This document shows positions 5,996-46,800 of a DNA stretch of 64,000 bases, one piece after another. The stretch comes from Prorocentrum cordatum (lineage: Eukaryota): the NCBI GenBank assembly GCA_963575745.1, contig CAUYUJ010000001.1, positions 1,860,001-1,924,000 of the forward strand, given 5' to 3'. The translations under genes and the position numbers were made by a program. The first letter of the stretch is position 1. Each line of letters starts with the position of its first letter. The notes beneath the pieces are model-generated. The model did no database searches and was not told where the DNA came from. It worked only from the letters and a program-made list of their open reading frames with translations.

Positions 5996-7316
5996 GATGT
6001 TCCTGGGGGAGGGGGGGAATGGTACCAAGGCGCCCAAGAGCGAAGGGTGCCGTAAACAACTCGACACCAAGGCTCACAAGAGCGAGCGGCAACGCAACGA
6101 TCTCCACAGGCATCGTCAGAACAACAATCACTACTGTTGCCCATTGCTGGCCCCCTCCCCCCCCAACCTACTTATCATCCGCAGGGTGGTCGTATAGGTA
6201 TTGTTAACTTGTTATCGGAGATATTAGCACGCCTCTGGCCCGTTGGGCCGGCGAATTTCCGAACGCCAGACTAGCCCCTATGGTCGGATCTCGCCCTGCC
6301 AGCCTCGCTAGCCATGCTTGTCGCTGGCGCTGGCTGCCGCCACAGGCGCATGTCAGCCCCTGCCTAACCCCACTGCCCCCAGACAGGCTTGCCAATGTTG
6401 GTTGCCACCGCGCCCATGCTGCGCTCCCTGCCCTACCAGTGCCAGTAGCCTTGATGCCACCACCACTGGTTGCCGCCATTATTCGGGTATAGCCAGGACC
6501 CCAGGAATGTAAGGGGACCCGATTAGCGGTAGGGCCCCGGGGCCCTTGAATTGGCCAGAATCTCTCAGCCAGGTCTGTCGTAGCTGGTGTTTTTCGGGGG
6601 ACGGCAGTTCTGGTTAGTGGAACGTGGCGGGGGGGCCTCCCGCAGTACACATCACTAAACCAGGTTCCACTAAACCCAGTTCTGCCAACGCCCGAATTAC
6701 AGCCTCTTCAAGTCCTTGCTCAGCCAACCCTGACCCAAGTGCCCTCGTGTCGACAGCGCTGGTTGCGGCCACAGGCCACTGCTGGCCCACCCCCGACCCA
6801 CTGGTCCCGCTCGCCCTGCTGGCCGCCAGCGCCAGTTGCCATTCGCCCTGGCCCAGCCTAGCTGTGCTAGTCGCCGAGGCTGACAGCTGCAAGTGCAAGC
6901 GAGCATCTGATTCAGAAGCCTCCTTCCGAATAGCTGGGCCAGCTTTGCTTGACAGACTTGCCAGATAGCTGGCACAGCTTCGTGAGTACGTTCGCACCTC
7001 CAGCGGTGACACCAGAAGTTGGCCAAGGTTTATTTTCTGAAATTTTCGGGAAGCAGATCCCGATGGTTTGATGATCATTGTCTTGATCATATGTTCGGTT
7101 AGCTCATGGCTCTCCATTAGGGAACGATGGGTCCTGCGATGATCGCCCCCGCCTCCCCAACACGATTCCTGAGTGTCACCAGCGCGGCTTGCTGCTAGTA
7201 GCCCGTACTGGTTCCTGGCTGGCAACGCCCGCCCATGCCTACTAGCCCTCTCTACTAGCCCAGCCCAGTTTATGTTTGGGGTCCACGCGCCAGTGCGATC
7301 CGATGTGGCTGTGCAG

Positions 7317-7601
7317 GCCCAGAACCCCCACTGGACGTGCCGCTGAAGGGGACTGTCAAGACCTGGTACGAAGAGAAGGGCTTCGGCTTCGCCTCGGTCG
7401 ACGATTACCGGGTCGACATATTCGTGCACCGGAAGGTCTTGCACGTCAGCAGACCCATGTTGAGCAACGGCGAGCGCGTTCTTTTAAAGGTTGGATGGGA
7501 TAGCGCGAAAGGCAAGTACCACGCGACGGCGTGTGAAGTGTTTGGCGATGCTGGGGAGGACGCATCGCCACCACCCCTGCTGTGCGCGGACGGCACCGAC
7601 G
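7317..7601 (+). CDS. Exon: cold-shock domain 1 of a 2xCSD-2xRRM RNA-binding protein (upstream exons not identified)
   Basis: Translates PEPPLDVPLKGTVKTWYEEKGFGFASVDDYRVDIFVHRKVL...KVGWDSAKGKYHATACEV, with CSD RNP1 KGFGF and RNP2 IFVH; acceptor gtgcAG|GC, donor GACG|gtcagc, phase 1. Confidence 0.88.
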
Positions 7602-8048
7602 GTCAGCGGACAAAAGCGCGCGCGAAATGAGGATATTTGCAGGGAGACTTTCGTCCAGGGGACAGGCGGAACAGTTCTGCGGCACGACCTTGTCGGGCAC
7701 ACGTAAGAGTGACCCTTCGCTAGAGTGCTGTTTTGCGCGACCCCAACGGGGCCCCCCGATCGCTGAATGCGGTTGGATATCAGCGGCTGGCGCGCCTGGG
7801 TTTGGCGCCCCGCGCCCCCCCGAAAGTCGCGCACCACAGGTCACTCCTGCCCAGGGTCGCTCTTGTGCATAGCCGACCTTGGATGCCCCCTGCAGACTTT
7901 TCAGCCGTCGTTGGGCCAAAGCTCTCATCCCTTCTCTCTCTCTCTCTCTCTTTCTCTTTTTCTCTCTCTCTCTCTCTCTCTTTATTTCTTTCTCTCTCTC
8001 TCTCTCTCTCGTGAGGGGCCTCATCTCGTGCGCGCTTTGAACGCCCAG

Positions 8049-8209
8049 GCCCTCCGCTGAACGTGCCGCTCGTCGGGACCGTCAGGACGTTTACAGACAA
8101 GGGCTTCGGCTTCATACTGCCTGACGACTTCCAGGTCGAGGTCTTCGTGCACCGTAACGACCTCGTCGGCGGAACCGCCCTGGGCCCCAACGACCGCGTT
8201 TCCTTCCAG
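8049..8209 (+). CDS. Exon: N-terminal part of cold-shock domain 2
   Basis: (G)PPLNVPLVGTVRTFTDKGFGFILPDDFQVEVFVHRNDLVGGTALGPNDRVSFQ; acceptor cccAG|GC is phase-compatible with the previous exon; donor CAG|gtaggt. Confidence 0.88.
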
Positions 8210-8436
8210 GTAGGTAAGGATGCAACTCCTGGGAGGTTACGTTGAGCTTCGGCGCTGGTGCATCCGTGGTCGAATGCCGTCCAAGTCTGGTATAATCCTT
8301 ACGAATTCCATTGGATCCTGCTCATTATGGTATGAGATGAGGTCTAATTTGGGCCAGTCCGGCTTAATGGCCCCTTCGTCGGGCTTCATGTCCCCGCATC
8401 TCTCTCATGCAAATCTCCCAGAAGTTGCCTCCTGAG

Positions 8437-8474
8437 GTCGGGTGGGACAGCACCAAGGGCAAGCATAGCGCGAG
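8437..8474 (+). CDS. 38-bp micro-exon continuing CSD2
   Basis: VGWDSTKGKHSA(R) matches VGWDSAKGKYHA of CSD1; acceptor tgAG|GTC, donor GCGAG|gttgtc. Confidence 0.85.
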
Positions 8475-8655
8475 GTTGTCGGGCGGGGCTGAGACGAGGA
8501 GAAACCCGTTCCAGAGCGTTTTGGAACGCTCTCAGAGCATTCCGAGACGCTCTGAGAAGGCCGCGGCGCCCGAGACATCCTCCAGAGCCGCAGAATTTCT
8601 TGATTTTCACGCTTTATTCCCACCCGATTTTGTCCTCGTCATGGCTTCGTCGTAG

Positions 8656-8826
8656 GTTGGTCGAGGTGATCGCCGACGGCGGCGGCAGCGCCGGGGCCGC
8701 AGCGGCACCGAGCGGATCCGCCGCCGGGCGGGGCGCGACCCTGCTCATCGGCGGGCTGCCTTCGGACGTCCAGGAGGACCTGGTGGAGAGTCTGGTCGCG
8801 GCCTTCTGCGAGGTGCGGCGCATCAG
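8656..8826 (+). CDS. Exon: end of CSD2, linker, first half of RRM1
   Basis: (R)LVEVIADGGGSAG...GATLLIGGLPSDVQEDLVESLVAAFCEVRRI(R); LLIGGLP is RNP2-like; acceptor cgtAG|G, non-canonical donor ATCAG|gacttc. Confidence 0.82.
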
Positions 8827-8910
8827 GACTTCTCTCCCTCCTCCTCCTCCTCCTCCTTCTCCTCCTCCTCCTCCTCCTCCTCCTTCTTCCTCCTCCTCCT
8901 CCTCCTCCTC

Positions 8911-8961
8911 CCGTGGCCATTTTGGCTCAAGCCATTTTGGCTGAAGCCGTGTCGGCTCAGG
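8911..8961 (+). other. Tandem dinoflagellate spliced-leader relics (three copies, increasing decay)
   Basis: CCGTGGCCATTTTGGCTCAAG (20/21 to CCGTAGCCATTTTGGCTCAAG), then CCATTTTGGCTGAAG (14/15), then CCGTGTCGGCTCAGG (11/15). Confidence 0.9.
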
Positions 8962-11180
8962 GTGGTCTGCGCGAGCCGCGCCGCCTGGCGCCAGCCTCGA
9001 CCCGCTCCTCGGGCCCTCCTGCCCCCGCCCCGCCGCGGGCCGCCGCGCCCCGTCCTCTCCCCGCCCCGCTCTTCCGCCACGGCGGCCTTGGCGCGGGCGT
9101 CAGGTTCCGCGGCGGGTCTGCCGGCGCCCGCCGCGCCCCGCGTGCCCGAGGCCCCGGCGGGGGCAGGAGAGGCACCCCCGGACGGCGGCGCCCGCCAGGT
9201 ACAGAGGTCCGGCGCGTCTCGCGCTGGCGTCCCAGATAAGGCTTCGCCACAGGGCTGCACCACACACACCGCCGAGTTTGAGTTTTTGTTCAGGAGTCAG
9301 ATGATTGCTTTCGGTGCGGATGTCGATCGCATGCGATGTGTGTTCCCTAGGATCGCAGTTAGGCGGGAGGAGCGTTCCGCAGTGACCGAGCGTGCCCAGG
9401 ACTTGGCCATTCACCAGGTAATGATCCACACTGATGCTGAGCTCGCGGCCACGTTTGATGACGTCAAAACTCAATTGAATGACTTGAGGGCCGTGGTCTC
9501 GTCGGGTACTTCGGCTCGCGCCGACTCGGACTTCGAGATTGTGGGGGGGAGATGAGGAAGGTGGTCGCCGTAGGGTTCTGAGGACATCAGGCTCTGACCA
9601 AGCGAGCGCCACCTCGTCTCATCGTTCTTGGTTTGCCACTCGTCGAGGCCTTGTTGAAAGAAGCTTTCCAGCCCATCATCGCGCAGTGCAGTGCCTTGGT
9701 AGAAGTGCCGATCGGGCGCGCGTGCTCACTGACTAGGAAGGTGGTTCTCGACTTCCCGTGCACTCGCGTGTCCAGCGTTCTTCGGGAAGAGCCAGAGCAT
9801 TGGGGAGACTGTGCACCAGAATCCGATCGACGGTCTTGGTTGGGAGCTACGCGGGCGTCGGGACCTCCCCCCTGCCAGTCTGAAGTTCTTCTTTTATCTT
9901 GGTCAGATTCGTGCTATCGTCGGCAACGTGCTGGGTCATATTCAGGTCGGAAGCAACGGACTCGGCGGGCAGGTCTGTGGGTTCCTTATCCGCGTGCACC
10001 CTGTCGTGGTGGCGAAGGTCACGATTTCTGAGTCAGGTGTACGGTGTACCGGGTCTCCTGCTTGATCCTAACGGTGGTCCTAACGGTCTGAGTAGTGTTG
10101 GTAAAGAGGCTCATGCTGGTTGCGTCCAGGCACCTGTTGATCGAATTCGTCCCTTTGTGTGATGGGCCCAGCCAGTTGTCCAGGAGCATCCTTGCTCGAG
10201 ACCATTGGTGCTCTGGCTGGCATGTTTTTGCGCTCTCCTGGAGCCCCTGGTCTTCCGTCGGGTGGAGAGCCGTCTGGGGTTGGCCCTAAGACCTGCGCGG
10301 CCCTAGAACGCCGGAGAGGGGCTCAGCCAGCCAACCTGAGTTGATTGTAAACCTGAATTCGGAAGGTGGGTCACGCCTGGCGACCCTGCCTCTGGAGTGC
10401 ACGTAGCTTTCTCGCCTAAGTCTTCTCTTTCTGTTTGCACATGGAACAATCACGCCCTTTCTCGCCCCATGCGACTTTTTGCCACTTACGGGAGCGCGAC
10501 GCGCGCGGATGCTCCAACTTGTCGGCAGGTTTGATGCGGCGTGCTTACAGGAGACGCATGGCACGCGCGCAGATTGTGAAATGCTCTGCCAGGATGATCG
10601 CTGTCGGCACGCAGTTGTTCACGATTCCGCGATTGAGCCGAATGCAGATGGGAGTGTGGTAACCAAATTGTCCAGAAGACCGATGGCGCAGTTTGACTCG
10701 TGCAGCCCGCGCGCGGTCGTCCCTGGGCGGATCTTGGCTTCGCACATGAAGGGGCGGAAAGGTGACTCCATGATTCTGAATGTTTTACATGCCCGCTACC
10801 TCGGACCCCGCCGAGAAACATCGCAGGCACAAGGGGGGTTATTCAGGCCAACCCCCCCGCCAGCTGCCCATGCCGTGCGCGTGATTGCGGGAGATTGGAC
10901 ATTCGCGGGGGTAGAGGAGGGCAGATTTAGGACGGGCGGGACTTGATTGGCTGGGGGTCGGCAGCAGACGGATGCTTGTGAGTCGGAATATGGGTCCTGG
11001 GTTGAGTTGCACCAAAATGATCCCACGCGACAGGATGTCTTTGCGGGTCCTTCGCAGGGGGCGGCTCGTCTGGGTCGCATCTAAACGTCTCTCCCTGCTC
11101 CTGTGCTGAGTGACCTCCTGGTTACAGTCGATTGGACATGCAGTTGAGGCGCGGGCGCTGCTCTGGCCCCCGGTTTACAG
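8911..11180 (+). mobile_element. 5' part of a decayed LINE (SL relics, ORF1-like region, APE endonuclease); RT not present
   Basis: APE motifs in order across frameshifts: CTWNN (~10436), CLQETHG (~10545), VIAGDW (~10885), RLGRI* for RLDRIY (~11070); putative ORF1 remnant 8962-9555. Confidence 0.75.
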
Positions 11181-11750
11181 CAACAGCGGCTCCGCCTGAT
11201 ACTTCCATCTGTCGCTTGTGACTCCTCGCAATTTATTCAGGCGCCACGCCCTCGCCATTCAGGAATCGCGCCCTCGCCTGGGACTTCCTCATAAGTTACT
11301 TAGGAATCGCGCTCTCGCCAAGGATTTCCGGGCGAATTATGCAGGACTCACGAATTCGCGTAACATGCGAGTTTGTTCGATGGAAGTGCCCCTCCAGGTG
11401 CTCGCTGTGTTTTTACCGGGGAAGGTCTTCATTCTCAAACTGTGCCCCTGGCCCAACAGTTGACCCCGCCTGATACGATCTTATAATGTATTAAAGGATC
11501 GCGCTCTCGCTTGGGAGTTCCTTTCAACTTATCGAAGAATCGCGCTCTCGCCTGATACTTTCGCGCAATGTATTCAGGCGTCGCGATTTCGACACTCAAA
11601 AATCGCGCTGTCGCTTGGGACTTCCTCGCAATGGATTCAGGCGCCGCGCCCTCGACACTCAGGAATCACGTTCTCGCTGTCGATTTCCTCACGAGATTGA
11701 TTTTGGAATCGCGCTGTCGCTCAAGGCTTGTTCGCGATTCATGCAGGCGC
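11180..11750. repeat. Dispersed tandem-unit family with core aggaatcgcgctctcgc
   Basis: Repeated ~39-bp units; related blocks at 12325-12445, 13310-13500 and 27210-27380. Confidence 0.75.
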
Positions 11751-12449
11751 ACGCTTCAGCAACCCGCCCGCTCGACCTGGCCGGGCCCGCCTGTTATGGT
11801 CTACCCGCCCGATTTGCCCGCATGGTTATGCCATGTTTTTTTTCTGTTCTTAGCCCCCATCCAGCTATTCTCTTTCGTGCTCCATCCTCATCCATCCCCC
11901 TTGGCCCTTCTGTCCATCCGTCCTGTCTTCCCCTTTTTTCAGGTGCTGCACGACACACGTTGCAGGTAAGGAATGTGTACCCCCAATGGGATACGATCGA
12001 AAACGAGAAGGGTTGGTATCGAGGGTCTGGTTTTTACGTGTTGAGTGGCACGCGAGGAGATGAGAGCGAAGCATAGCTTAAATCAAAACATGTTGTTGTC
12101 GCCGTTGTTGTTATTGTAGTCGATGATGCTGATGTGTTTGTTGGTGTTGTTGTTGCTGTTGCTGTTGTTATTGAACTTTCTACATTGCAGAAGAAGTATT
12201 GTTGATCCCCCCTTCTGGTGACCATTGTGTTTTTCAATTGAAGTGTTTCCTCCGGGGCTCGCACCCTGTTTTCTATCAGGGAAAGTCACGGGGCTCAGAC
12301 TGCGTTGTTGGCCCCGGATTAGAACAACAACGGCTCCCGCCTAAAACATCCTCGCAATTTAGCCAGGACCCCCGCTCCCACCTGAGACTCCCTCACATTT
12401 TACTCAGGAATCGCGCTCTCGATTTGGATTCCTTACACTTCATTAAGGG

Positions 12450-13309
12450 AAGAGCGGGTTCTACCGCTGCTGGCGGAAAACCGGGGGGGTCACGGAGGGT
12501 TCCCAACCCGCCGCCCCCCCACTCTCGAAAACAGGGGGGGGGTCACTACCGGTTCGACAACCCCGCCCATCCCCCCCCCTGTTTTCGAAAGGTTCGAATT
12601 CCCCTCCCCCTCCCCCCTCGCCGCGGGCAACGATTCCCGCTTTGGGGGACAGTGGGACAGTGGTGGGGACATTGGGACAATGGTGGGGACGGTGGTGGTG
12701 GGGACACTGGTGTGGGGACAGTGTGACTGTGGTGGGGACAGTGGGACAATGGTGGGGGTGGTGGTGGTGGAGACACAGGTGAGGGCGGTGGTGGGGACGG
12801 TGATGGGATAATGGGGCAGTGGTACAGTAGGGAGAGTGATGGGGACAGTCGGGAGTGGGTCAGTGGCGGGGGCAGTGGGGACAGTTGGGGCAGCACAGTG
12901 GGACAGCGGGGGGGCAGTGGGGACAGTGGGACAGTGGCGGGGACAGTGGGGACAGTGGGGACTGTGGTGGGGACAGTGGGGACAATGGTGGGAACAGAGG
13001 GGACAGTGGTGGTGGGGACGGCGGTGCTGTGGGGACAGCGGGGGGGCGGTAGTGAGGACGGTGGTGGGGACCCGGGAGTCGTTTGCCGGCGATGAGTGGG
13101 TGGGGTCTTCGAACCAGTAGTGACCCTCCCCGGTTTTCCGGAGGGGAGGGGGGAGAGGTTAGGGGGGGGGCCGGGAGAAGGGAGGCGGGGGTTGTTCGAG
13201 CAGGGGGGGGAGGGATTTTCGGAGGGGGGGGGTGGACCGCCGGGTTCCGGATTCTGGATGAAGGGGGGGAAATTTTCCACAGTAGAGTTGCGGTGGATCA
13301 CGCCATTTC
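12450..13309. mobile_element. Non-autonomous TIR element with subterminal ggggggtcactaccggttcgaa repeats and an internal (ggggacagt)n minisatellite
   Basis: Left end gaagagcgggttctaccgctgctggcggaaaa is imperfectly inverted to the right end; subterminal motif is inverted at ~13109; flanks tcattaagg/ttatgaagg may be a degenerate 9-bp TSD; the same left end occurs at ~57332. Confidence 0.6.
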
Positions 13310-13502
13310 TTATGAAGGGATCGCTCTCTCGGCGTTCTGGAGCCGCCCTTTCGCTGGAGACGTGCTTGCAATGTATGAAACAATCGCGCTCTTGCGTTGG
13401 AGTTCCCCGCAATTTACTCAAGCGCCGCGCTCCCGACACTTAGGCACCCAGGAGTCGCGGTCAGGCCTAGGACTCCCTCAAAGCTTACTTAGGAATCGGG
13501 AT

Positions 13503-14250
13503 CTCGCTGCCCTTCGTGGCCCCGTTGCAGCCCTTCGTGGCCCCCTCGCTGCCCTTCGTGGCCCCGTTGCAGCCCTTCGTGGCCACCTCGCTGCCCTTCG
13601 TGGTCCCGTTGCAGCCCTTCGTGGCCACCTCGCTGCCCTTCGTGGCCCCGTTGCAGCCCTTTGTGGCCCCCTCGATGCCCTTTGTGGCTCTTTTGCAATC
13701 GTTCGTAGCCCCCTCGCTGCCCCTCGTGGCCCCGTTTCAGCCCTTCGTGGCCACCTCGCTGCCCTTCGTGGCCCCGTTGCAACCCTTCGTGGCCCCCTCG
13801 CTGCCCCTCGTGGCCCCGTTGCAGCCCTTCGAGGCCCCCTCGCTGCCCTTCGTGGTCCCGTTGCAACCCTTCGTGGCCCCCTCGCTGCCCTTCTTGGCAC
13901 CTTGCAGCCCTTCGTGACCCCCTCGCTGCCCTTCGTGGCCCCGTTGCTGCCCTCTGTGGCCCCGCCCTTGGCCCCTGCGGCCCAATATACGTATGCCTTT
14001 CGTGGTCCCCACTCGTTCGCGCCCGTCGTGGGCCCATATGCATGCCCTTCGTGACCCCGCTGTCGCCCTTTGTGGCCCCCTCGCTGCCCTACGTGGCCCC
14101 GTTGCTACCCTCACTGGCCCCGTCGTTGCCTTCTGTGGCCCCGAATTATCTGCCCTTCGTGGCCCCCGCTCGTTCGCGCCCTTCGTGGCTCCATACGCAT
14201 GCCGCTGTCGCCCTTCTTGGCCCTCTTCCTGCCCTTCGTGGCCCCGCTGT
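13503..14250. repeat. 21-bp minisatellite (gcccttcgtggccccgttgca / gcccttcgtggccccctcgct), 42-bp dimer
   Basis: Directly visible; gives AALRGPV repeats in spurious ORFs. Confidence 0.95.
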
Positions 14251-14414
14251 TGCTCTCGCTCTCGCTTTCGCTCGTCGTCGTCGTCGTGGTCGGTCCCTTG
14301 TCCGTCCTTCTTGGGGTCGAGTTGCCGCCGATCAGCGCTGCCGCTGGCCAGGCCGACGGTCCGCGGCCGCCCCGCCGCTTGCCGGGGCCCGGCCTGCATG
14401 GAAGAAAGATATAG

Positions 14415-15090
14415 ACACGGACACGGACACGGCGCCTACTCGCCCCACGGGACGACCCTACGAGGGGCTAGGCGGTTGCGCCTCGGCGCCAACAGGAATA
14501 TTCAGCCGGCCGATTCACTCGATCAGATGATCTTGACCATGCCCACGTACGTAGTGCAGACCATAGATTGCTGTCCGGCGGAATTGTTTGCCAAGTTTGT
14601 CTGCCACTTCTGAGAATAAAGCTTGCCACGTCGTCAGCTCATCGTTTGTAGGGTCGGTGTGGTAGTCTCTTTGCGCGTGGATGTGTCTCGGTTGGGTCCC
14701 GTAGCAAGGCCTACCTGCTCCATTTCCCCATGTTGTCGTTGAGGGATATTACAACAAGTCCCCATTGCAAACGTCTCTGCCGTGCGCACCAATCTTCGTA
14801 ACCCACTTGCCGGCAGTATTGCTCTATTTGTTTCATCGTGCGTTGAATCCGTTCTTGCCATGGCTCAATTGCAATAGAAGAAGGCCACGTGCCCGTTTTG
14901 GTGCTGCTGTCGGCGCTGGTGTCGGTATCGCTGCTGTCGGAGTAGCTGTCCCGAGTGGTGCCCTCTCTGTCGGAGCGGTGTCCAGGGCCCACTTCCCCTG
15001 CAGTATCTGAAAGAAAACGTCGCGGTGGTCCAATAATCATTCTAAGCGTACGGCGCTGGGTGGACCGCACCCGTGCTTCCAATGCTCAGG
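14415..15090 (-). mobile_element. 5'-truncated 3' fragment of an RTE-like LINE ORF2 with a short tandem tail
   Basis: QRRTLRMIIG...EPWQERIQR...EDWCARQRRLQW...GKWSR*ALLRDP...HRPYKR*ADDV resembles the RTE C-terminal R.GRP..RW.D motif, with stops; ends in (gtgtcc)n. Confidence 0.65.
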
Positions 15091-17483
15091 AGGAAAAGAA
15101 ACACACAGACACAATTAATCCTCGATTCCCAAGGAACTATGGGAGAATATGGGAAGTGGGGGGGAAGACAGAAACCCAGAAAATATAGGAAAATATGGGG
15201 AATCGTTTTATTTGTGTGTATTTATTTGTGTGTCCTGGGGCCCCTTCCAATGCAACTGTCATCGTCCACGAGCCAGCTCCATACACTAGCGCACGGGTAC
15301 CAGTGCCAGTGAACAGCCGAAGGCGGCCATGCAAGGAATACGACCGTGCAGTAAGCTTTTGCTGCGCGCCGCCGATGGCGGCGGCGCGCTGGGGCCAGCC
15401 CCCTCCAGTGTGTCTCCGCTCGGCGCGGCGGCGCGGAGGCCCAGGGCCAGAAAGACAGTATTCTTCCTCCTCCTCCTCCTCCTTCGCCTCCTCCTCCTCC
15501 TCCTCCTCCACCTCCTCCTCCCTCCTCCTCCTCCTCCTCCTCCTCCTCCTCCTTCTCCTCCTGCCTTTCCTCCTCCTCCCCCTCCTCCCCCTCCTCCCGC
15601 TCCTCCTCCTCCTCCCCCTCTCCCGCGAGGGGCTGGAGCGACCACGCGCAGAGGGCAGATGGCCCTTTTGCATTCTTCCCTTACCATGATTGCTGTTTTC
15701 TTTGCCCCCTGGAGTGTCGAGGCTCATTCCGTCAGCTAGGGTTGAGCTCAATGAGACTTTCAAGACGGCGGCACTATGCTCAGGATCTGGAGCCGATTCG
15801 ACACTATGGTGAAGGATTCGAGCCATCACGCCACCCACCCCCCTCCCAGACATGGTCGTGCGAGGTTTTTGGACGTTTTCAGTTTCTGGGGGCCCTCGCC
15901 AGGCCCCAGGACCGTCAAGAAACCAATCGCGATGAGAAACCGGCCGTGGAAGAGGGTCGGGACGTAAGGGGCCCCGTACTGAAAAACTCGAGACGTTTGG
16001 GGGTGGCCAAGGGGGGGCAATGACCGGGGAGGGTGGATCTCATTGCCCGGAGCATGATATCTCCTCGGATCTCATGGCCCCCTTGTCTCATTTCAGCAAG
16101 TGCCCTGGTCACCCCTTCGTCCGCGCACATGCCTCGGACCATGATGCGCCAACCCCCTCTTGGACGCCTCCCTGACGGACGCCCCCGAGACATCGCATGC
16201 CTGGAGGAGGAGGAGGAGGAGGAGCAGGAGGAGGAGAAGGAGGAGGAGAAGGAGGAAGAGGGAGGAGGAGGAAGAAGAGGGAGGTGAAAGAGGAGGAGGA
16301 TGAGGAGGAGGGAGGAGGGATGAGGGAGGAGGAGGGAGGTGGGAGGAGGGAGGAGGAGGAGGGAGGAGGGAGGAGGGAGGAGGGAGGAGGACGCGTGGAT
16401 TAGCGCCGGGTCCCGCTTCCATGTCCCGCTCCTTTCGGCCGGCACTCGTCCATCCATCCTCCTCCTCCTCCTCCTCCTCCTCCTCCTCCTCCTCCTCCTC
16501 CTCCTCCTCCTCCACCTCCTCCTCCTCCTCCTCCTCCTCCTCCCTCCTCCTCCTCCTCCTCCTCCTCCTCCTCCTCCTCCTCCTCCTCCTCCTCCTCCTC
16601 CTCCTCCTCCTCCTCCCCCTCCTCCTCTTCCTCCGTGCCAGAGCGTGTGTGCCGATCTCTGAGCTCCTACCACCACCTCCCTCGACCGGGGGGAGGGGGA
16701 GGGGGGGGAGGGGGAGGAGGACGAGCAGGCGGGCAATCGGGTCGAACGCCAAGGGGGGGATCGATGGTTGATAGATTCGGACACTGTCGTCGGTTCTCGG
16801 ATGTTCTCTAGCCTCGGGGTGTTCTCCAGCAGCTGCGCCTCGCTGAGAGCGTTCTCGGGGCGCCCAGTCGTCCCGAACGGCCGCCCAAGATCCGAGCAAT
16901 TGTCCAGAAGCCAGACGACGGAGGTTCCTCGGGGCGGACGAAAGGCGGTGATGCATCGACCCCCAATCGCTCCCCAAGAGATCCCCAATCGCCCATTGAT
17001 GGGACCCCCCAAGGGGGTGCCCCTCGAGCGGGGTCTCTCGGGGAAGGGGGGGGTGCGAGTGCAGCTGGTTTGGGCCACGCCGCCGGGCGCTGTCTTCGAT
17101 ACGCGGCCGCCTCCTGCGCCAGCAGGCGCCCGGCTTAGAAACCAGGCGCATGAGCCGATTCGCTGAGAGCCCCCATTTCAGAATCCCCCCTTGTCGTCCG
17201 ACCCGAGAGAGGGGTGGGAGGCGATGGTGTGTAGAAGTAAGCTGTCTGTCGGTGTAGCAGTGATCTGTCTGTCAGTTCTGGGGCCATCCCCTGACATTCG
17301 CCGGTCTGTTTTTTTTTCAATGCGCGGCTCCAGAGGTCCTGGGCCTGCTCTTCGCCCCAGGTCCACTTGTGATGCTCCGGGGGCCCCGGCAACGGGCCCC
17401 AGGGGCCGAACTCGAGGAAACAGCACCCTGGATTGACGAAACCATCTCGTCGGAGATGCGGGTCTCTCTGCCGTCCCCACGAG

Positions 17484-17645
17484 GATCGCGCTCGATCCCA
17501 AGGGCGGCAAGGACGAGCTGGGGCCCAGCAAGGCCGCGCTGGTGGACGTGGCTTCGGAGGAGGAGGCGCGCGCCGCCGAGGCGGCGGTCAGCGAGGCGAC
17601 GTGGGTGGGGGAGTCGCTGCGCGTGCGGGTGTGCCGACCACACTG
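17484..17645 (+). CDS. Exon: second half of RRM1
   Basis: (R)IALDPKGGKDELGPSKAALVDVASEEEARAAEAAVSEATWVGESLRVRVCRPH; acceptor cacgAG|G completes the AG+G Arg codon of exon 8656-8826; donor CACTG|gtaagg. Confidence 0.8.
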
Positions 17646-17889
17646 GTAAGGCTTCGGGCCGCGCACAGATAGCCCCCCCAGGAAATCACGGTGGGCCTCA
17701 GCAGGCCCCCCGAAGATGTAGTCACAGTTGGCCTCACCCGAGCAGCCCGCGGCACTTCAACATCCCAGCGCCGCCTCCAGCGACGCCTCTGAGGCGTTCC
17801 GCGCCCCAGGGTGGGGGTGTTGAGACCGCCCTGGGTTACTCGGAGGGCCTGCTCAGGCCAGCTGGGGCTACTCGGGTGCGCCTGTGGAG

Positions 17890-18019
17890 GCAAGCCGGGA
17901 CTGCCTGGGGGAGCGCCCTGTGCGTAACCCGAAGCCTTGCCAGACCAGACTCTCACGCGCCCCAGAACAAGCTGTATGTGTCTGGCCTCCCGCTCGCCAT
18001 GAAGGAGGCCAACGTCGAG
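17890..18019 (+). CDS. Exon: linker and start of RRM2 (5' boundary uncertain)
   Basis: ...PDSHAPQNKLYVSGLPLAMKEANVE contains a clear RNP2 (LYVSGL); donor GTCGAG|gacact (GA); several phase-2 AG|G acceptors are possible (~17793, ~17857, 17890). Confidence 0.72.
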
Positions 18020-18088
18020 GACACTCCGAGGAGCAACAGCTACCGATACCTCCACCCATTCCTCGTCGGCACGGCTGGATTCTAGGCT

Positions 18089-18297
18089 CTCCCACATGGG
18101 GTCCGAGTAGATGGGGTCGCAGGATCGCGCCGCATCGCCGATTCATAGGCGATGGGGCTCGATGTGGTGCCCAATTCTGTCCACGGCGATGTCGTCGTTG
18201 CATTGCCGACGCCGACGATGCATCGCCGATGCATCGATGATGAATCGGCGATGCGGTGCGACCCTCCAACCCCATCTACACGAACTCCATGCGGGAG
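18089..18297. mobile_element. MITE-like palindromic element, family A, copy 2
   Basis: ctcccacatggggtccgagtagatggggt ... accccatctacacgaactccatgcgggag inverted ends; internal similarity to 2511-2728. Confidence 0.78.
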
Positions 18298-18566
18298 GCC
18301 TCTATCTATGGATTCTCGGCACCACCTCTAAGTGCTGGTCAGAACGCAACCGTGGGAGTGTCCGGGGAGTGGCGGCATGGGTACCTTCCTGTTGCCCCCA
18401 GCCACGAGGTTGAAGCCCCACATTTGGAGGAGGAGGAGGAGGAGGAGGAGGAGGAGGAGGTGGGCTCAAACGGTCTCGCGGTTGGGGGCCGCATTCGGGC
18501 CCGGTCGTGGAGCAAGCGGTTGCGAAGTCAGTGGGGCGTGACCTGGGAGGTGCCCCCCTGTGGTCA

Positions 18567-18835
18567 GGATCGCGTCTGCTTCGCACATGGCTTCGCAGTC
18601 GCAACAGGAGCGAACCTGTTAGATGCCGTATGCGTTCGCACTTGAGCAAGAGTGATCAGTCGCGCATTAATCACGCGCGCACCTTGGGTTCCCATGTGTT
18701 GGATCGCGTCTGCTTCACACATCGCTTCGCAGTCGCAACAGGAGCGAACCTGTTCGATGCCGTATGCGTTCGCACTTGAGCAAGAGTGATCAGTCGCGCA
18801 TTAATCACGCGCGCACCTTGTGTTCCCATGTGTTG
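18567..18835. repeat. Tandem duplication of a 134-bp unit
   Basis: ggatcgcgtctgcttc starts at 18567 and 18701; the copies are near identical. Confidence 0.95.
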
Positions 18836-19339
18836 GAAATTATACTGGGATTAGGGGGGCCTGCTCGCGGTAGTAAGTTCAGTGGCGGCACGCGTGCCAG
18901 TTTCGGGGTGCGCTTGCGTTTTTGCGTTCTGATCCTCCGTACGTCAGGAAAGACACAATGATGCACGCACACGCGGACTAACGTGGGCTTCGAGAGAGAG
19001 AGAGAGAGAGCGCGTTACGCGAGCGCTCGTAGCCTGAGGGCGGCCTCGCGCACGCGGGAGCCTGCTCATCTAGGTGGCTGGGCGCGAATATCTTCTGGGG
19101 GCTCCCTGCTCCCATTCCCCTTATCATGCTTCGTCGTCTCCTCGCTTTTGAACTGAAGGTTGAGGCCATGCCATGGCGCGTCTCAGGCGTATCGCCCCAA
19201 TTCCGATCACCATGCCACTGGGGCAGCCTGAATGGGCTTCCTTCATGGCGCAGTGCTCCTTTCAGCATCGAGTGGCGCGTCTCCAGACCGAAAGACCAGA
19301 TAGACACCGTCGCTCCCTTGTCGGGACGAGAGCCTGCTT

Positions 19340-19520
19340 CGTCGCATCCTCGCTGTTCTCCTTCCTCGTCGTTCTCCTCGTGGTTATCCTCGTTGTTCTC
19401 CTCGTTGTTCTCCTTCCTCGTCGTATCCTCGTCGTATCCTCGTCGTATCCTCGTTGTTCTCCTTCCTCGTCGTATCCTCGTCGTGTCCTCGTCGTATCCT
19501 CGCTGTTCTCCTTCCTGCCT
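19340..19520. repeat. Minisatellite of (tcgtcgtatcc)n and tcgttgttctcc units
   Basis: Directly visible tandem 11-12 bp units. Confidence 0.85.
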
Positions 19521-20230
19521 AGAAAGGGGGGGGCGGGGCTCAGGGGTCGGGCGCGCGGAGGGCCGTGCCACCCAGGGCGTCGGGAGGGGTTGCCTCGCCC
19601 AGAATGTCTGGGGCCCTTCTTGCGGTGCCATGGCATCGCTGTGCTGCATTTTCAAGGGCGCCCTCGAGGGCGCGAAGTTATTCGCGCTTCGCGGTCCTCG
19701 CTCCTCCTCCCCCTCCTCCTCGTCCTCCTCTTCTCCCTTTGGGGGGGCGGCGCGAGGGCGCGAAGTTATTCGCGCTTCGCGCTTCGCGGAGCGCGAAGCG
19801 CGAAGTTGGGAGCCCTTGCTTCTTGCAGTGCCATGGCATCGCTGTGCTGCATTTTGTTCGCAGCGAGGGCCATCGAGGAGCAGATTGGTTCATCTTGCGG
19901 GGAGCAAGCGCACGAAGTCGAAACATGCACGGGGAGTGGACGTCCGAGCGTTGGCGAGGTGCAGTGTCGCAGAAGGGAGCGCCCGAAGCGGGCTGCTCCC
20001 GGTGTGATTTGGTTCTGCAGCCCAGGCACCAGAACTAGGACCCTTGCGGGTTCAGCGATGGCTCCTGGTTTCCGGGCCGGTAGGGGGAGGAGGATGAAGA
20101 GCAGGAGGGGGGCGGGAGGCGGAGGAGGAGGAGGCGGAGGAGGATGCGGAGGAGGAGGAGAGGAGGAGGAGGAGGAGGAGGAGGAGGAGGAGGAGGAGGA
20201 GGAGGAGGAGGGGGGGGGAGGATAGGAGGA

Positions 20231-20248
20231 TAGCCATTTTGGCTCAAG
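20231..20248 (+). other. Spliced-leader relic at the LINE 5' end
   Basis: TAGCCATTTTGGCTCAAG equals the 3' 18 nt of the dinoflagellate SL exactly; it directly follows a (GGA)n tract. Confidence 0.92.
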
Positions 20249-20322
20249 GTGTCAAGAGTGACAAGATGTGACACACATCTTCTGCTCCAGAGAGCAGGTC
20301 CGATACCGTAGCGGCGGCAGTA

Positions 20323-43999: not shown

Positions 44000-46800
44000 G
44001 GCGCGCGCGGTGGCGCCCCTCCCTTCTCTCCTGCCTGCGCTTCCGTCCTGTAGCTGGCGCGTTCGGCGTCTGTCGGAAGAGCACCCCCCTCTCATCCTCT
44101 TCTTCTGGACCCCCCGCTGCCTCCGCCAAGTGGGGGCCAAAGCTGCCAGGCGATGGCCAGGGCCCAGGCCACTCGGACCTCCCAGGGGGGAGATCCGGAC
44201 TTCTGGACAAGAGCGACATCGAGCCATGCAATGACGCGCGCGAGCGTTGCCCCCCACTCGCACCCACCTCAACCTGAAAGGTTTCTGGCGCCACCCCGAA
44301 GGCTCCCAGGGCCCTGGGGCCGCCAGCGGCCATGGCCCGTGCATGTCAGGAACACTGGAACCCCACCTTCACTGGATCACCCGTGGACGAGAAAAGGCTC
44401 TAGGCATGCGCGCGCAAGCGCCTCCCTCGCATCGACGCCGCCGACCTGCCCGCCCCCGCCGAACACCAGCTGAGGCGCGCTCTGGAGCGTGCCCGCCCGT
44501 CGGCACCAGGGCCGGACCAGCTGCCCCATGCTGCCTGGGCGGCCATCCCATGGTGCTCTCTCTGCTCTGCGCGCTAGGTACAGATGTTTTCGACTGGCCA
44601 CGCTCCTTTTGGTTTCAACACCTCGGATGTCTGCTTCCTCCCCTAGGGGGCCGAAGTCTCGAATGGCGTTGATTGCCTCCGGGGCGCGGGCTGCGCGCGC
44701 CCCTTGAGTTTGAAAAATGCGGACTCCCAGACGGTGGATGCAGCGGCCAATCGTTTGACCCCCTTGGTCAGGGAACGCGCGGGCCCCGCGCGGCAAGGTC
44801 TCGTTCCCGGGCGCCAGCTTGTAACCGGCATTGTCGCCTTTGACCTTGAACCCCCCGGGTCTCGCGCTTTTCGTTGCGCTGGTCGATGTTTGCATCTTTC
44901 GAAGTGCGGGCCGCATTTCCCCGCCCCTCCCAGGTCTGTCTCTTCCTCCCCCCCCTTGCTCGCGGCCCCCCCGAGGGCGTCGCGATCGCGCTGCGCGCCT
45001 GTGCGAGCTTCTCCTCGGCCTCGCGAGGCTTGAGTCTACCAGGGGGGCTTTTTTGCCCCATCAGCTCCGGGGTCTCACGTGGACGCCAATTGCGTGGACC
45101 ACTTTGGGCGCTCGCATTCGACGCCCCCCTTCGCCACCTCCACGAGGCGCTTCCCGTCGACGCCATCCCTTGCAGCGGCCGGTGCCGACGGCGTCGGGGC
45201 GCATCCAGCGGAGGCGCGCTTGCGCCCTTTTGGGCCGCGCGTTCGTTTGCCAATCCCACGCCCCAGGTGAAGACATGCAGCGTCGTGCCATTGTTGGGGC
45301 CGTGCTAAGGCCGGGTCGAGGGCGAGGCTCGCGTTCTTCTCGCTTCTCTCGCACCTGACCTGGTCTGCCTCTGACGCCGGCGGAACCTGCGCGAGCATCG
45401 ATGTTTGCACTGGGCCTGCTGCCGCCCTCAAGGTGCAGTGGCGGCCTGCCGCGCAGAAGTGGCGGGCGCGCGTTCAGCCCCAGGCGGCCAGTCTTAACGA
45501 TGGCAATCAATATATACACGTACGTCGCATCAATGATGCCAGCGTTGATTTATCTCGCCCAGTTTGTGCCGTCGATCGCAAAGTGCCGCGGCATGATATA
45601 TTCGCACTGCATGAGGTCTGCTGATTACCCCCAGATCTCTCGACGCGGGACGATTTTCATTCCCTCCGCTCCTGGGGCGAAGCGGAGCTTCCCGCTTCCC
45701 TCCATTCTTATTTAGAGCGCTACCGCTGCCTGGCGGTTTTGCTTTTTCACGCCGGAGCGCGGAACCCTCGGCCCCCTGAGCCACTGGCGCCGGTGATTCT
45801 GGAGTCCGCCTTCTGGCAGCGGAAGCGTAGCTCCGGTGAGATGCATTCTTCGATGGCTAGCGGCTTCCCCATGAAGAATTTTGTCTAGACGGATTTCGAC
45901 TGCCTGCTTGCGCGCCGCTCAAGGGGCCGGCTGCGAAGTCGCCCGGGCCTCCAAGCTGAACGCCGCGGTCATCGCCCTAGGCTTCAGCGGGTTGTAATTC
46001 GCTCTCTGCCCGTGCCCGAGTTCCCCGGATATTCTGCGCGTGCCATCGCCGAACGCTCGGGTTCAGAGGTGCCAATTCGCTCTTTCGGGGCCCCTGCCGA
46101 CTTAGAGCTCCGCTGGCAAGCCCTGCTGCGTGAGTTCGCGCAGCTACACCTGGCCCATCGGTGGCGCGCGGCGGAGGCGCCTTGCGCGGGCTGGAGCGCG
46201 TTTCGCAGGATGCGCGAGCCGCACTCCCGTTGCTCGGCGCGGGACTCGATGTGCCATTATTGGCAGTTCCCCATCTCGCGCATCAAACCGCCCTCCCCCG
46301 CGCCTTCCTCAGACCTTGCTTATTCGTCCTGTGGGTCTGGGCTCCGCAGGTCGGTCATCCGCAGGTTGCTCATTGCTTTCTATCTCTTCCACATTGTGAA
46401 AGTCGAGCTGGACTCTGCTGCCAGAGCGTCGAAGAGAACGCGCCCGTTGCCTGCGTCTCACGACTTCGCGCGCGGACGCCTGCTGACAGCTCGCCAGAGC
46501 GCCGAGGCATGAACTGTGGGCGGTCGGCGTGGGGAAATGCCCCCCATCTGGGGCTATCGCTCGTAATCCCAGTGATGCTTTCCATTGCCGTTTGATTCAA
46601 GACTTTGCGAATGTCGGCCCGACCCTCCGCGACAACCCAGGTGGGGGATCCGTCGAGAACGGCGCGGGGAGGCGGCAAGCAGGCATCAGGCTGGCACGAG
46701 TGATTCGATAGGCTTACGCCGCGTTCGCCGACCCGTCTATGAACGATTGCGCCTCCAGGATTACATTTCACGGGGCTCGTCCGAAGCGGGTCACGGCGCT
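44000..46800 (+). mobile_element. Heavily decayed LINE ORF2 (RT and C-terminal region)
   Basis: ARPSAPGPDQLPHAAW (~44490), SLKNADSQTVDAAAN..QGLVPGRQL, FEVRAAFP, SSGVSRGRQLRGPLWALAFDAPLRHL and PALIYLAQ occur in non-LTR RT order; the YADD segment appears lost. Confidence 0.75.

What the first reader, a model, noticed from the sequence alone, without database searches (positions are those of the whole stretch)
8911..8961. LINE headed by three tandem spliced-leader relics with a decay gradient
Seen: a 21-nt SL (1 mismatch), a 15-nt relic (14/15) and a more decayed 15-nt relic (11/15) sit directly in front of an ORF1-like region and APE domain. Established: in recycled dinoflagellate genes, a new SL is spliced at the AG inside an old genomic SL, leaving tandem CCATTTTGGCTCAAG 15-mers. 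Inference: the retrotransposon's own RNA went through repeated trans-splicing and reinsertion, so the array records successive cycles, oldest innermost.
Basis: partly seen in the sequence, partly recalled or inferred. Interest (0 to 1): 0.85.

Follow-up and report, generated by a model that had tools for sequence, protein, structure and literature searches.

The report
Spliced-leader relics heading dead LINE fragment
A dinoflagellate spliced-leader copy and two decaying relics of it are really there, about 1.2 kb in front of a broken piece of a LINE retrotransposon; this fits the known recycling of spliced RNAs back into the genome, but it is not shown that the leader belongs to the LINE.

Summary
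8911-8931 is the dinoflagellate spliced leader (DinoSL, 20/21). It is followed in phase by 15-nt relics at 8932-8946 (14/15) and 8947-8961 (11/15), far beyond chance.

Downstream there is a real but dead LINE piece:
- An ORF2 start codon at 10113 is shared with a related protein.
- An AP-endonuclease domain at about 10421-11132 has 2 stops, frame changes and lost catalytic residues. Pfam does not see it. HMMER relatives do, and 13 of 20 scanned carry Exo_endo_phos, 6 of them also RVT_1.
- There is no reverse transcriptase, poly(A) or target duplication. Homology ends near 11.15 kb at a repeat.

No tool supported the "ORF1-like" region.

Contigs of a closely related DNA run carry diverged copies of the relic-plus-leader (8930-9021) and of 9492-9907. 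No single copy is seen joining the two.

Best reading (about 0.55): a trans-spliced, repeatedly retroposed LINE-derived RNA, now a 3'-truncated fossil. Main rival (about 0.3): the relics head an unrelated retrocopy that lies next to a LINE fragment.

Relic arrays and their decay gradient are textbook for dinoflagellates. A LINE body would be a modest extension.

The parts
8837..8911 (.). (CCT)n microsatellite, 24.7 units, ending exactly where the SL copy begins
   Evidence: TRF; sequence
8911..8931 (+). Genomic copy of DinoSL positions 2-22, 20/21. The one mismatch is A>G in the AG (CCGTAG>CCGTGG) that serves as trans-splice acceptor in recycling
   Evidence: canonical SL as printed in PMC8045281 and PMC7245778
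8932..8946 (+). First 15-nt SL relic, 14/15
8947..8961 (+). Second, older 15-nt SL relic, 11/15 (P by chance at this phase 8.9e-5)
8962..9300 (+). GC-rich (about 0.78) leader without ATG. Its first 60 nt, together with the relics, occur as a roughly 90% identical contig in a related DNA run
   Evidence: read laying record 4
9301..9552 (+). First ATG-started ORF after the relics, 84 aa, coding-like GC1/2/3 of .62/.45/.65. Candidate ORF1 start with no homology support
9582..10028 (+). Open frame of 149 aa ending 81 nt before the ORF2 ATG, in the position of an ORF1 C-terminus. No Pfam, homologue, Atlas or fold support. Diverged (about 84%) copies of 9647-9907 are present in the related run
10113..11140 (+). 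Decayed N-terminal part of a LINE ORF2. The ATG at 10113 aligns with Met1 of relative P0004. The AP-endonuclease domain is at about 10421-11132, with frame changes between 10289 and 10531 and stops at 10944 and 11085. LQETHG is kept, GDWNF>GDWTF, RLDRIY>RLGRI*, and homology ends before the SDH motif
11168..11750 (.). Dispersed/tandem repeat family (63-nt units) where LINE homology stops. High word depth in the related run (239 in bin 11168-11250)
7259..8836 (+). Upstream context on the same strand: a cold-shock-domain exon (CSD, 2e-8, ORF 7259-7627) and a sub-threshold first half of an RRM (8741-8830, RRM_1 positions 1-30 of 70, E 0.19) that runs into the (CCT)n

Best explanation
The array is the 5' end of a retroposed RNA that was trans-spliced and re-inserted at least three times, and the body of that RNA was most likely a LINE transcript. 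Proposed cycle: a genomic copy headed by an SL is transcribed from upstream, needing no promoter of its own. A new capped SL is trans-spliced at the AG inside the old SL, trimming the old SL to the 15-mer CCATTTTGGCTCAAG. The LINE machinery then reverse-transcribes the full-length RNA, SL included, into a new site. Older relics have spent longer as DNA and are more decayed. The copy in this window is a fossil. Its outer SL has lost the AG acceptor. ORF2 is frameshifted, has two stops and has lost catalytic Asn and Asp. Everything from just before the SDH motif onward, the reverse transcriptase included, is gone, replaced near 11.15 kb by a repeat. Shown: the SL and relic structure, the LINE-type APE, the ORF2 start, and the presence of diverged copies of both ends of the unit in a related genome. 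Inferred: that the SL array and the LINE piece were one RNA, that 8962-10112 is 5'UTR plus ORF1, and the whole cycle.
For: SL 20/21 plus in-phase 15-mers 14/15 and 11/15, with unit borders exactly after ...CTCAAG, which is the signature of splicing at the SL-internal AG (passages of PMC3229502). phmmer of the read-through 10407-11141 against 1.84 billion representatives: 40 hits at E<=1e-3, 6 at <=1e-10. Of 20 hits scanned with Pfam, 13 carry PF03372 over the matched part and 6 (1021-1268 aa) carry PF03372 at the N-terminus plus PF00078 RVT_1, the LINE ORF2 layout. 37 of the 40 hit 10346-11132 by tblastn. A profile of 9 long ORF2s matches 10494-10931 at 3e-20 and 10971-11081 at 4e-6. P0004 Met1 aligns with the ATG at 10113 (E 6e-6 pairwise), so the element reaches at least 330 nt upstream of the APE. 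Same strand, and no recognisable host domain between relics and ORF2. In a DNA run that has contigs identical to 9938-10308, there are about 84% identical contigs on 9647-9757 and 9742-9907, variant contigs at 9492-9514, and a 99-nt contig (word depth 26.7, against 3.4-3.5 for the identical contigs) on 8930-9021 spanning relics and leader. Song et al. 2017 report GO 'RNA-dependent DNA replication' enriched among genes with upstream DinoSL relicts (passages of PMC5585692).
Against: No RT anywhere between 11.1 and 44.3 kb on either strand, and no poly(A) or target-site duplication, so the copy cannot be shown to be one TPRT product. LINE copies are normally 5'-truncated, not 3'-truncated. Pfam itself does not detect the APE even at E<=10, and the PDB sequence search gives 0 hits. 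The 1150 nt between relics and ORF2 have no homologue in three protein searches. No contig covers 9052-9420 and none bridges relics to LINE. The tool states that contig depth is not copy number. The leader contig's depth (26.7) is higher than that of the 9.5-10.3 kb part (2-12), which would also fit a separate leader family. None of 80 metagenomic LINE loci has an SL, but these are not the same family.
Confidence: 0.55

Rival explanations
1. The SL array heads an unrelated retrocopy, for example the leader plus the 84-aa ORF at 9301-9552. The LINE piece lies next to it only because of a separate insertion, deletion or rearrangement in a repeat-rich region.
For: No tool links 8962-9490 to any LINE. 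The leader contig has a much higher word depth (26.7) than contigs on 9.5-10.3 kb (2-12), as expected if it belongs to another, more abundant family. The region is heavily rearranged: tandem repeats and microsatellites cut off the LINE at 11.15 kb. More than 20% of genes in two Symbiodiniaceae genomes carry relicts, so SL heads are common (PMC11453091 passage; PMC5585692).
Against: The LINE piece keeps its ORF2 start and at least about 620 nt of repeated sequence upstream of it (9492-10112), so a normal 5'-truncated LINE insertion does not explain it. No host domain is found between relics and ORF2. Only 2 SL sites and 2 LINE pieces lie in 64 kb, so one SL landing within 1.2 kb upstream of a LINE ORF2 start on the same strand has a chance of roughly 0.02-0.04 (my estimate).
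Confidence: 0.3
2. A host gene with a domesticated endonuclease domain, retroposed as an ordinary retrogene, not a transposon.
For: Exo_endo_phos-only relatives of 220-600 aa are frequent among the hits (7 of 20 scanned). This copy has no RT.
Against: The closest relatives continue into LINE ORF2 sequence. P0002 (64% identical over 10938-11129) runs on past the APE in the way the ORF2 consensus does (comparison by eye). All 6 long relatives have RVT_1. Most short hits come from contigs of 0.7-2 kb, so they are probably fragments. This copy is a pseudogene.
Confidence: 0.08
3. The SL was added without trans-splicing: by RT template switching onto SL RNA (as in U6-L1 chimeras) or by insertion into an SL RNA gene (as SLACS/CZAR/NeSL do). 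Or the match is chance.
For: SL RNA is abundant, and template switching at LINE 5' ends is known in mammals (recalled, not from a call).
Against: The SL is followed by 15-mers cut exactly at the internal AG and not by SL-intron sequence. Template switching or insertion into an SL gene would leave the intron part. Rfam and the sequence show no SL RNA gene here. Chance is excluded.
Confidence: 0.03

Closest known systems
Relict-DinoSL retrogenes of dinoflagellates (mRNA recycling; Slamovits & Keeling 2008 as cited in PMC3229502; Song et al. 2017 PMC5585692; PMC12014239)
   Same: A near-full SL followed by 15-nt relicts cut after the AG, with identity falling towards the 3' side, upstream of a body on the same strand. 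Arrays of three are reported: 91 and 82 genes with 3 relicts against 7452 and 8327 with 1 (PMC5585692 table passage).
   Different: The body here is LINE-derived and dead, not a host gene. In the passages I read, RT-related genes among relict carriers appear only as a GO enrichment, not as a described SL-headed LINE.
L1-type non-LTR retrotransposons, with their truncated derivatives and processed pseudogenes
   Same: An APE at the N-terminus of ORF2 and relatives with APE+RT. The layout is compatible with 5'UTR, ORF1, spacer, ORF2.
   Different: No RT, tail or TSD in this copy. It is 3'-truncated. The 5' end is defined by an SL and not by an internal promoter. ORF1 is unverified.
SL-gene-specific LINEs (SLACS, CZAR, CRE in trypanosomatids; NeSL-1 in nematodes), recalled
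   Same: A non-LTR element physically next to spliced-leader sequence.
   Different: Those insert into SL RNA genes and use a restriction-like endonuclease. Here the SL is a processed exon copy with relics, there is no SL gene, and the endonuclease is of APE type.
Trypanosomatid L1Tc/ingi with the Pr77 5' promoter (abstracts of PMC1874656 and PMC8190864 in the listing)
   Same: LINEs living in a genome where mRNAs are SL trans-spliced.
   Different: Per those abstracts, those elements carry an internal promoter and give unspliced transcripts. The reading here is the opposite solution.

Membership tests
Relict-DinoSL array (recycled, retroposed transcript) | Genomic copy of the 22-nt DinoSL or most of it | tested here: met
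   20/21 at 8911-8931; expected chance sites 1.5e-6
Relict-DinoSL array (recycled, retroposed transcript) | Relicts truncated right after the AG at SL positions 6-7, head to tail behind the SL | tested here: met
   15-mers at 8932-8946 (14/15) and 8947-8961 (11/15) in exact phase
Relict-DinoSL array (recycled, retroposed transcript) | Identity falls from the outer to the inner unit | tested here: inconclusive
   1/21, 1/15 and 4/15 mismatches; Fisher p=0.054
Relict-DinoSL array (recycled, retroposed transcript) | Transcripts of the locus receive a new SL at a relict AG | not testable with these tools
   No RNA holder listed. The outer AG is mutated to GG
LINE / non-LTR retrotransposon | AP-type endonuclease domain at the ORF2 N-terminus | tested here: met
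   Pfam is negative on the window itself. phmmer relatives carry PF03372 (13 of 20) and the ORF2 profile matches at 3e-20. The domain is decayed
LINE / non-LTR retrotransposon | Reverse transcriptase domain downstream in the same ORF | tested here: not met
   No RVT hit on the + strand 8640-20300 at E<=1. tblastn and the profile find none before 44.3 kb. So this copy is a fragment, though its relatives are LINEs
LINE / non-LTR retrotransposon | ORF1 upstream of ORF2 | tested here: inconclusive
   Open frames lie at the right place (9301-9552, 9582-10028; 81-nt spacer), but there are 0 hits in Pfam, three protein searches and the Atlas, and the fold has pLDDT 35.9
LINE / non-LTR retrotransposon | 3' tail and target-site duplication | tested here: not met
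   No A run of 6 or more in 8-21 kb. The 3' end is lost at a repeat near 11.15 kb
LINE / non-LTR retrotransposon | Several diverged copies in the genome | tested here: inconclusive
   No second copy in the window. About 84% identical contigs on 9647-9907 and variants at 9492-9514 in a related low-coverage run. No genome is held
SL-gene-specific LINEs (SLACS/CZAR/NeSL) | Insertion inside an SL RNA gene, with SL intron sequence on the flank | tested here: not met
   The SL is followed by relics and a GC-rich leader, and no SL gene is present

The most novel reading that the evidence does not exclude
A dinoflagellate LINE lineage that needs no promoter. Each full-length copy carries a genomic SL whose internal AG works as a portable trans-splice acceptor. 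Any read-through transcription, here possibly from the upstream CSD/RRM gene on the same strand, is then trimmed and capped into a full-length element RNA. The number and decay of relics would count the lineage's retrotransposition generations. The flush junction of both SL heads in the window with CCT/AGG microsatellites could mark where such RNAs integrate.
Probability: 0.25. Interest if true: 0.6.

Novelty: new member of a known kind. Interest (0 to 1): 0.35.

Why it matters
If the SL array really heads the LINE RNA, it would show directly that dinoflagellate LINE transcripts are SL trans-spliced and copied back full-length. The element thought to power gene retroposition in these genomes would then carry the same generation tag as its passengers. 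Relic number and decay could be used to order LINE subfamilies in time and to ask how a LINE defines its 5' end without a promoter. As it stands, this locus is one dead fragment. The relic array and its decay gradient are already textbook, and RT-related genes among relict carriers are already implied in print (PMC5585692 passages). The added value is therefore modest until family-wide data exist.

Tried and rejected
- No whole genome is held for the window, so the family could not be collected.
- The look-up of sequencing runs: no RNA holder is listed. There is only one DNA holder, with 0.12 of the words.
- Read laying: no cover on 9052-9420 and 10340-10431. X2 laid nothing.
- Pfam on 129 ORFs of 8.2-21.7 kb, on three X-read-through frames and on single ORFs at E<=10: no APE, RVT or ORF1 family. 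Only low-complexity hits such as MINT_RAM7.
- PDB sequence search of the APE: 0 hits.
- Three word-indexed protein searches found nothing: 9582-10028 near; 8911-9552 near, capped at 8000 candidates because of low-complexity words; 9301-9552 longer.
- ESM Atlas: no usable hit.
- AlphaFold without an alignment: pLDDT 35.9, not searched further.
- Metagenome scan with an ORF2 alignment: 80 loci at 22-41% identity. None has the SL 15-mer at <=1 mismatch. 5 have chance-like 2-mismatch hits on the + strand, none of them upstream of the ORF2 match. tblastx of 8900-11300 against these loci gives 0 hits. They are therefore not this family and the test has no power.
- SL-relic pattern in viral contigs: 0 hits. 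In genome contigs: 1 contig with the array at its very end and no body.
- P0004 in viral contigs: 0 hits.
- Earlier findings of this scan: nothing by place, words or sequence.
- Poly(A) search and RNP1-motif search for the missing RRM half: nothing.
- Rfam and tRNA scans: 0.
- The supplements of PMC5585692 are old .doc files and could not be read. They may list RT-type retrogenes.
- Literature searches and passages read gave no explicit description of an SL-headed LINE. This covers only the held library.
- The idea that the (CCT)n serves as the polypyrimidine tract of the acceptor was dropped as a general rule, because the second SL head is preceded by the purine-strand repeat.

Full report
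**What is there**

The window is GC-rich (about 0.6) nuclear DNA with one 100-N gap at 57499-57598. No whole genome is held for it.

At 8911-8961 the + strand reads CCGTGGCCATTTTGGCTCAAG | CCATTTTGGCTGAAG | CCGTGTCGGCTCAGG.

- The first unit is the dinoflagellate spliced leader (DinoSL) without its first base, 20/21.
- The second and third units are the 15-nt remainder of the leader after its internal AG, 14/15 and 11/15, head to tail in exact phase.
- The next 15-mer matches 4/15, so the array has three units.

Chance is excluded:
- The expected number of >=20/21 sites in the window is 1.5e-6.
- An in-phase 11/15 has P=8.9e-5.
- A <=3-mismatch scan gives 6 sites against 1.47 expected, and 0 of 100 shuffles reach 6.

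The single mismatch in the outer unit turns the AG used as acceptor in recycling into GG. The decay gradient rests on six mismatches (Fisher p=0.054).

Such arrays, cut after the AG and progressively degenerate downstream, are described in the passages I read of PMC3229502, PMC7245778 and PMC5585692. The last tabulates 91 and 82 genes with three relicts in two genomes.

**What lies downstream**

Pfam sees no endonuclease, reverse transcriptase or ORF1 family in three scans:
- 129 ORFs of 8.2-21.7 kb;
- three X-read-through frames of 8640-20300 at E<=1;
- single ORFs at E<=10.

The PDB sequence search is also empty.

By eye, frame 8640 at 10.5-11.1 kb carries LQETHG, GDWTF and RLGRI. A full HMMER search with the read-through 10407-11141 gave 40 relatives at E<=1e-3, 6 of them at <=1e-10. 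Of the 20 I scanned with Pfam:
- 13 carry PF03372 over the matched part;
- 6 of these (1021-1268 aa) carry PF03372 at the N-terminus plus RVT_1, the LINE ORF2 layout;
- 6 short ones have no family;
- 1 is an unrelated Tudor protein.

By tblastn, 37 of the 40 relatives hit 10346-11132. A profile of nine long ORF2s (A1) matches 10494-10931 at 3e-20 and 10971-11081 at 4e-6.

hmmalign to that profile shows:
- LQETHG and PGRIL are kept;
- the catalytic Asn is lost (GDWNF>GDWTF);
- the catalytic Asp is lost (RLDRIY>RLGRI*);
- homology ends at DLLVT, before the SDH motif.

There are stops at 10944 and 11085. The frame changes between 10289 and 10531.

P0004 is a 182-aa relative from a 744-nt metagenome contig. 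It is 63% identical over 10497-10652, and its Met1 aligns with the ATG at 10113. ORF2 therefore starts at 10113.

**What is missing**

- No RT remnant exists between 11.1 and 44.3 kb.
- A separate linker-plus-RT fragment lies at 44278-45155 on the + strand.
- There is no A-run and no recognisable target duplication.
- LINE homology stops near 11.15 kb, where a repeat family with 63-nt units begins.
- The copy is therefore a dead, 3'-truncated 5' portion of a LINE.

**The 1150 nt between relics and ORF2**

- 8962-9300 is an ATG-free leader with GC 0.78.
- The first ATG opens an 84-aa ORF (9301-9552) with a coding-like GC pattern.
- A 149-aa open frame (9582-10028) ends 81 nt before the ORF2 ATG.

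This is the place where an ORF1 would lie, but nothing supports the label:
- Pfam is empty.
- Three protein searches are empty.
- The Atlas gave no usable hit.
- The fold has pLDDT 35.9.

**Are the SL array and the LINE one unit?**

The window has no second copy. One DNA run (X1) holds 0.12 of the sampled words.

Laid at >=80% likeness, X1 gives:
- contigs identical to 9938-10308, so it is the same or a very close strain;
- contigs about 84% identical on 9647-9757 and 9742-9907, and variant contigs at 9492-9514, which are diverged copies reaching at least 620 nt upstream of ORF2;
- a 99-nt contig on 8930-9021 (9 mismatches, 2 gaps) that spans relics and the first 60 nt of the leader. Its word depth is 26.7, against 3.4-3.5 for the identical contigs.

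Both ends of the proposed unit therefore exist as diverged copies, and the decayed inner relic appears to be inherited with the leader.

Against this:
- nothing covers 9052-9420;
- no contig bridges the two parts;
- the tool warns that depth is not copy number;
- the higher depth of the leader would also fit a separate family.

The metagenome test had no power:
- The 80 LINE loci are 22-41% identical to the query.
- None has an SL at <=1 mismatch. The 5 chance-like 2-mismatch hits do not lie upstream of the ORF2 match.
- They show no similarity to 8900-11300.

**Reading**

A LINE-derived RNA was trans-spliced at a genomic SL and retroposed at least three times, and this copy later decayed and lost its 3' part.

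- The unit borders exclude template switching onto SL RNA or insertion into an SL gene.
- The main rival (about 0.3) is an unrelated SL-headed retrocopy lying next to a LINE fragment in a rearranged region.
- A domesticated endonuclease gene is unlikely, because the closest relatives continue as LINE ORF2.

**Novelty**

Relic arrays and their gradient are known. Passages of PMC5585692 report 'RNA-dependent DNA replication' enriched among relict-bearing genes, so RT-type genes with relicts are implied in print. Three full-text searches and the passages read gave no explicit SL-headed LINE. The supplements of PMC5585692 could not be read.

I file this as a new member of a known kind, of moderate-to-low interest until the family is surveyed.

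**Context**

- A cold-shock-domain exon (ORF 7259-7627, 2e-8) lies upstream on the same strand.
- A sub-threshold first half of an RRM (8741-8830) also lies upstream on the same strand and runs into the (CCT)n that abuts the SL.
- This would allow read-through transcription into the array. That is inference only.

Noticed in passing
window 20082-20248 (compare 8837-8931): A second genomic SL remnant (TAGCCATTTTGGCTCAAG, 20231-20248, + strand) starts exactly where an (AGG)51 microsatellite ends, just as the first SL starts where (CCT)24.7 ends. CCT/AGG-class arrays (42 of them) cover 2.9% of the window. Rough chance that both SL heads abut one: 2e-5. The repeat is in opposite strand sense in the two cases. 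n=2, and the cause is unexplained.
   Followed up: partly
window 8505-8591: A short element with internal inverted symmetry has very high word depth (about 7800) in the related DNA run, with many contigs breaking at 8591. It is probably a very abundant dispersed repeat.
   Followed up: no
window 44278-45155 (+): A second, separate LINE fragment: ORF2 linker and the first half of the RT (profile positions about 445-724), hit by 7 of the 40 relatives. No SL lies near it.
   Followed up: partly
window 7259-7627 and 8741-8830 (+): A cold-shock domain exon (PF00313, 2e-8) and, 1.1 kb further on, only the first 30 of 70 positions of an RRM (E 0.19) that ends in the (CCT)n. No RNP1-type second half was found downstream to 30 kb. 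This may be a host gene interrupted by the insertion, or an exon-intron border near 8813.
   Followed up: partly
window 11209-11747, 12447-12578, 13404-13507, 57331-57448: Copies of one repeat family (63-nt tandem units at 11535-11678) are scattered in the window and are abundant in the related run (word depth 239 in bin 11168-11250). The family marks the point where the LINE homology ends.
   Followed up: no
window 13503-14203: A long 21/42-nt tandem array (11 copies of 42 nt, 87% matches). It gives spurious long ORFs and the only 'Pfam hit' of the region (MINT_RAM7, far below its cutoff).
   Followed up: no
window 8915: The only mismatch of the outer SL copy changes the AG used as trans-splice acceptor in recycling to GG. 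This copy could be re-spliced only at the AGs of the inner units.
   Followed up: no
L081:18-41 (-): A 2789-nt contig filed in a Flavobacteriaceae MAG carries an exact DinoSL-plus-relic string at its end. This suggests dinoflagellate DNA binned into a bacterial genome.
   Followed up: no
window, whole: The window is gene-poor. Of 402 ORFs scanned in all (129 of 70 aa or more in 8.2-21.7 kb, 273 of 110 aa or more elsewhere), only the CSD exon reaches its Pfam cutoff. There are no Rfam families and no tRNAs.
   Followed up: yes
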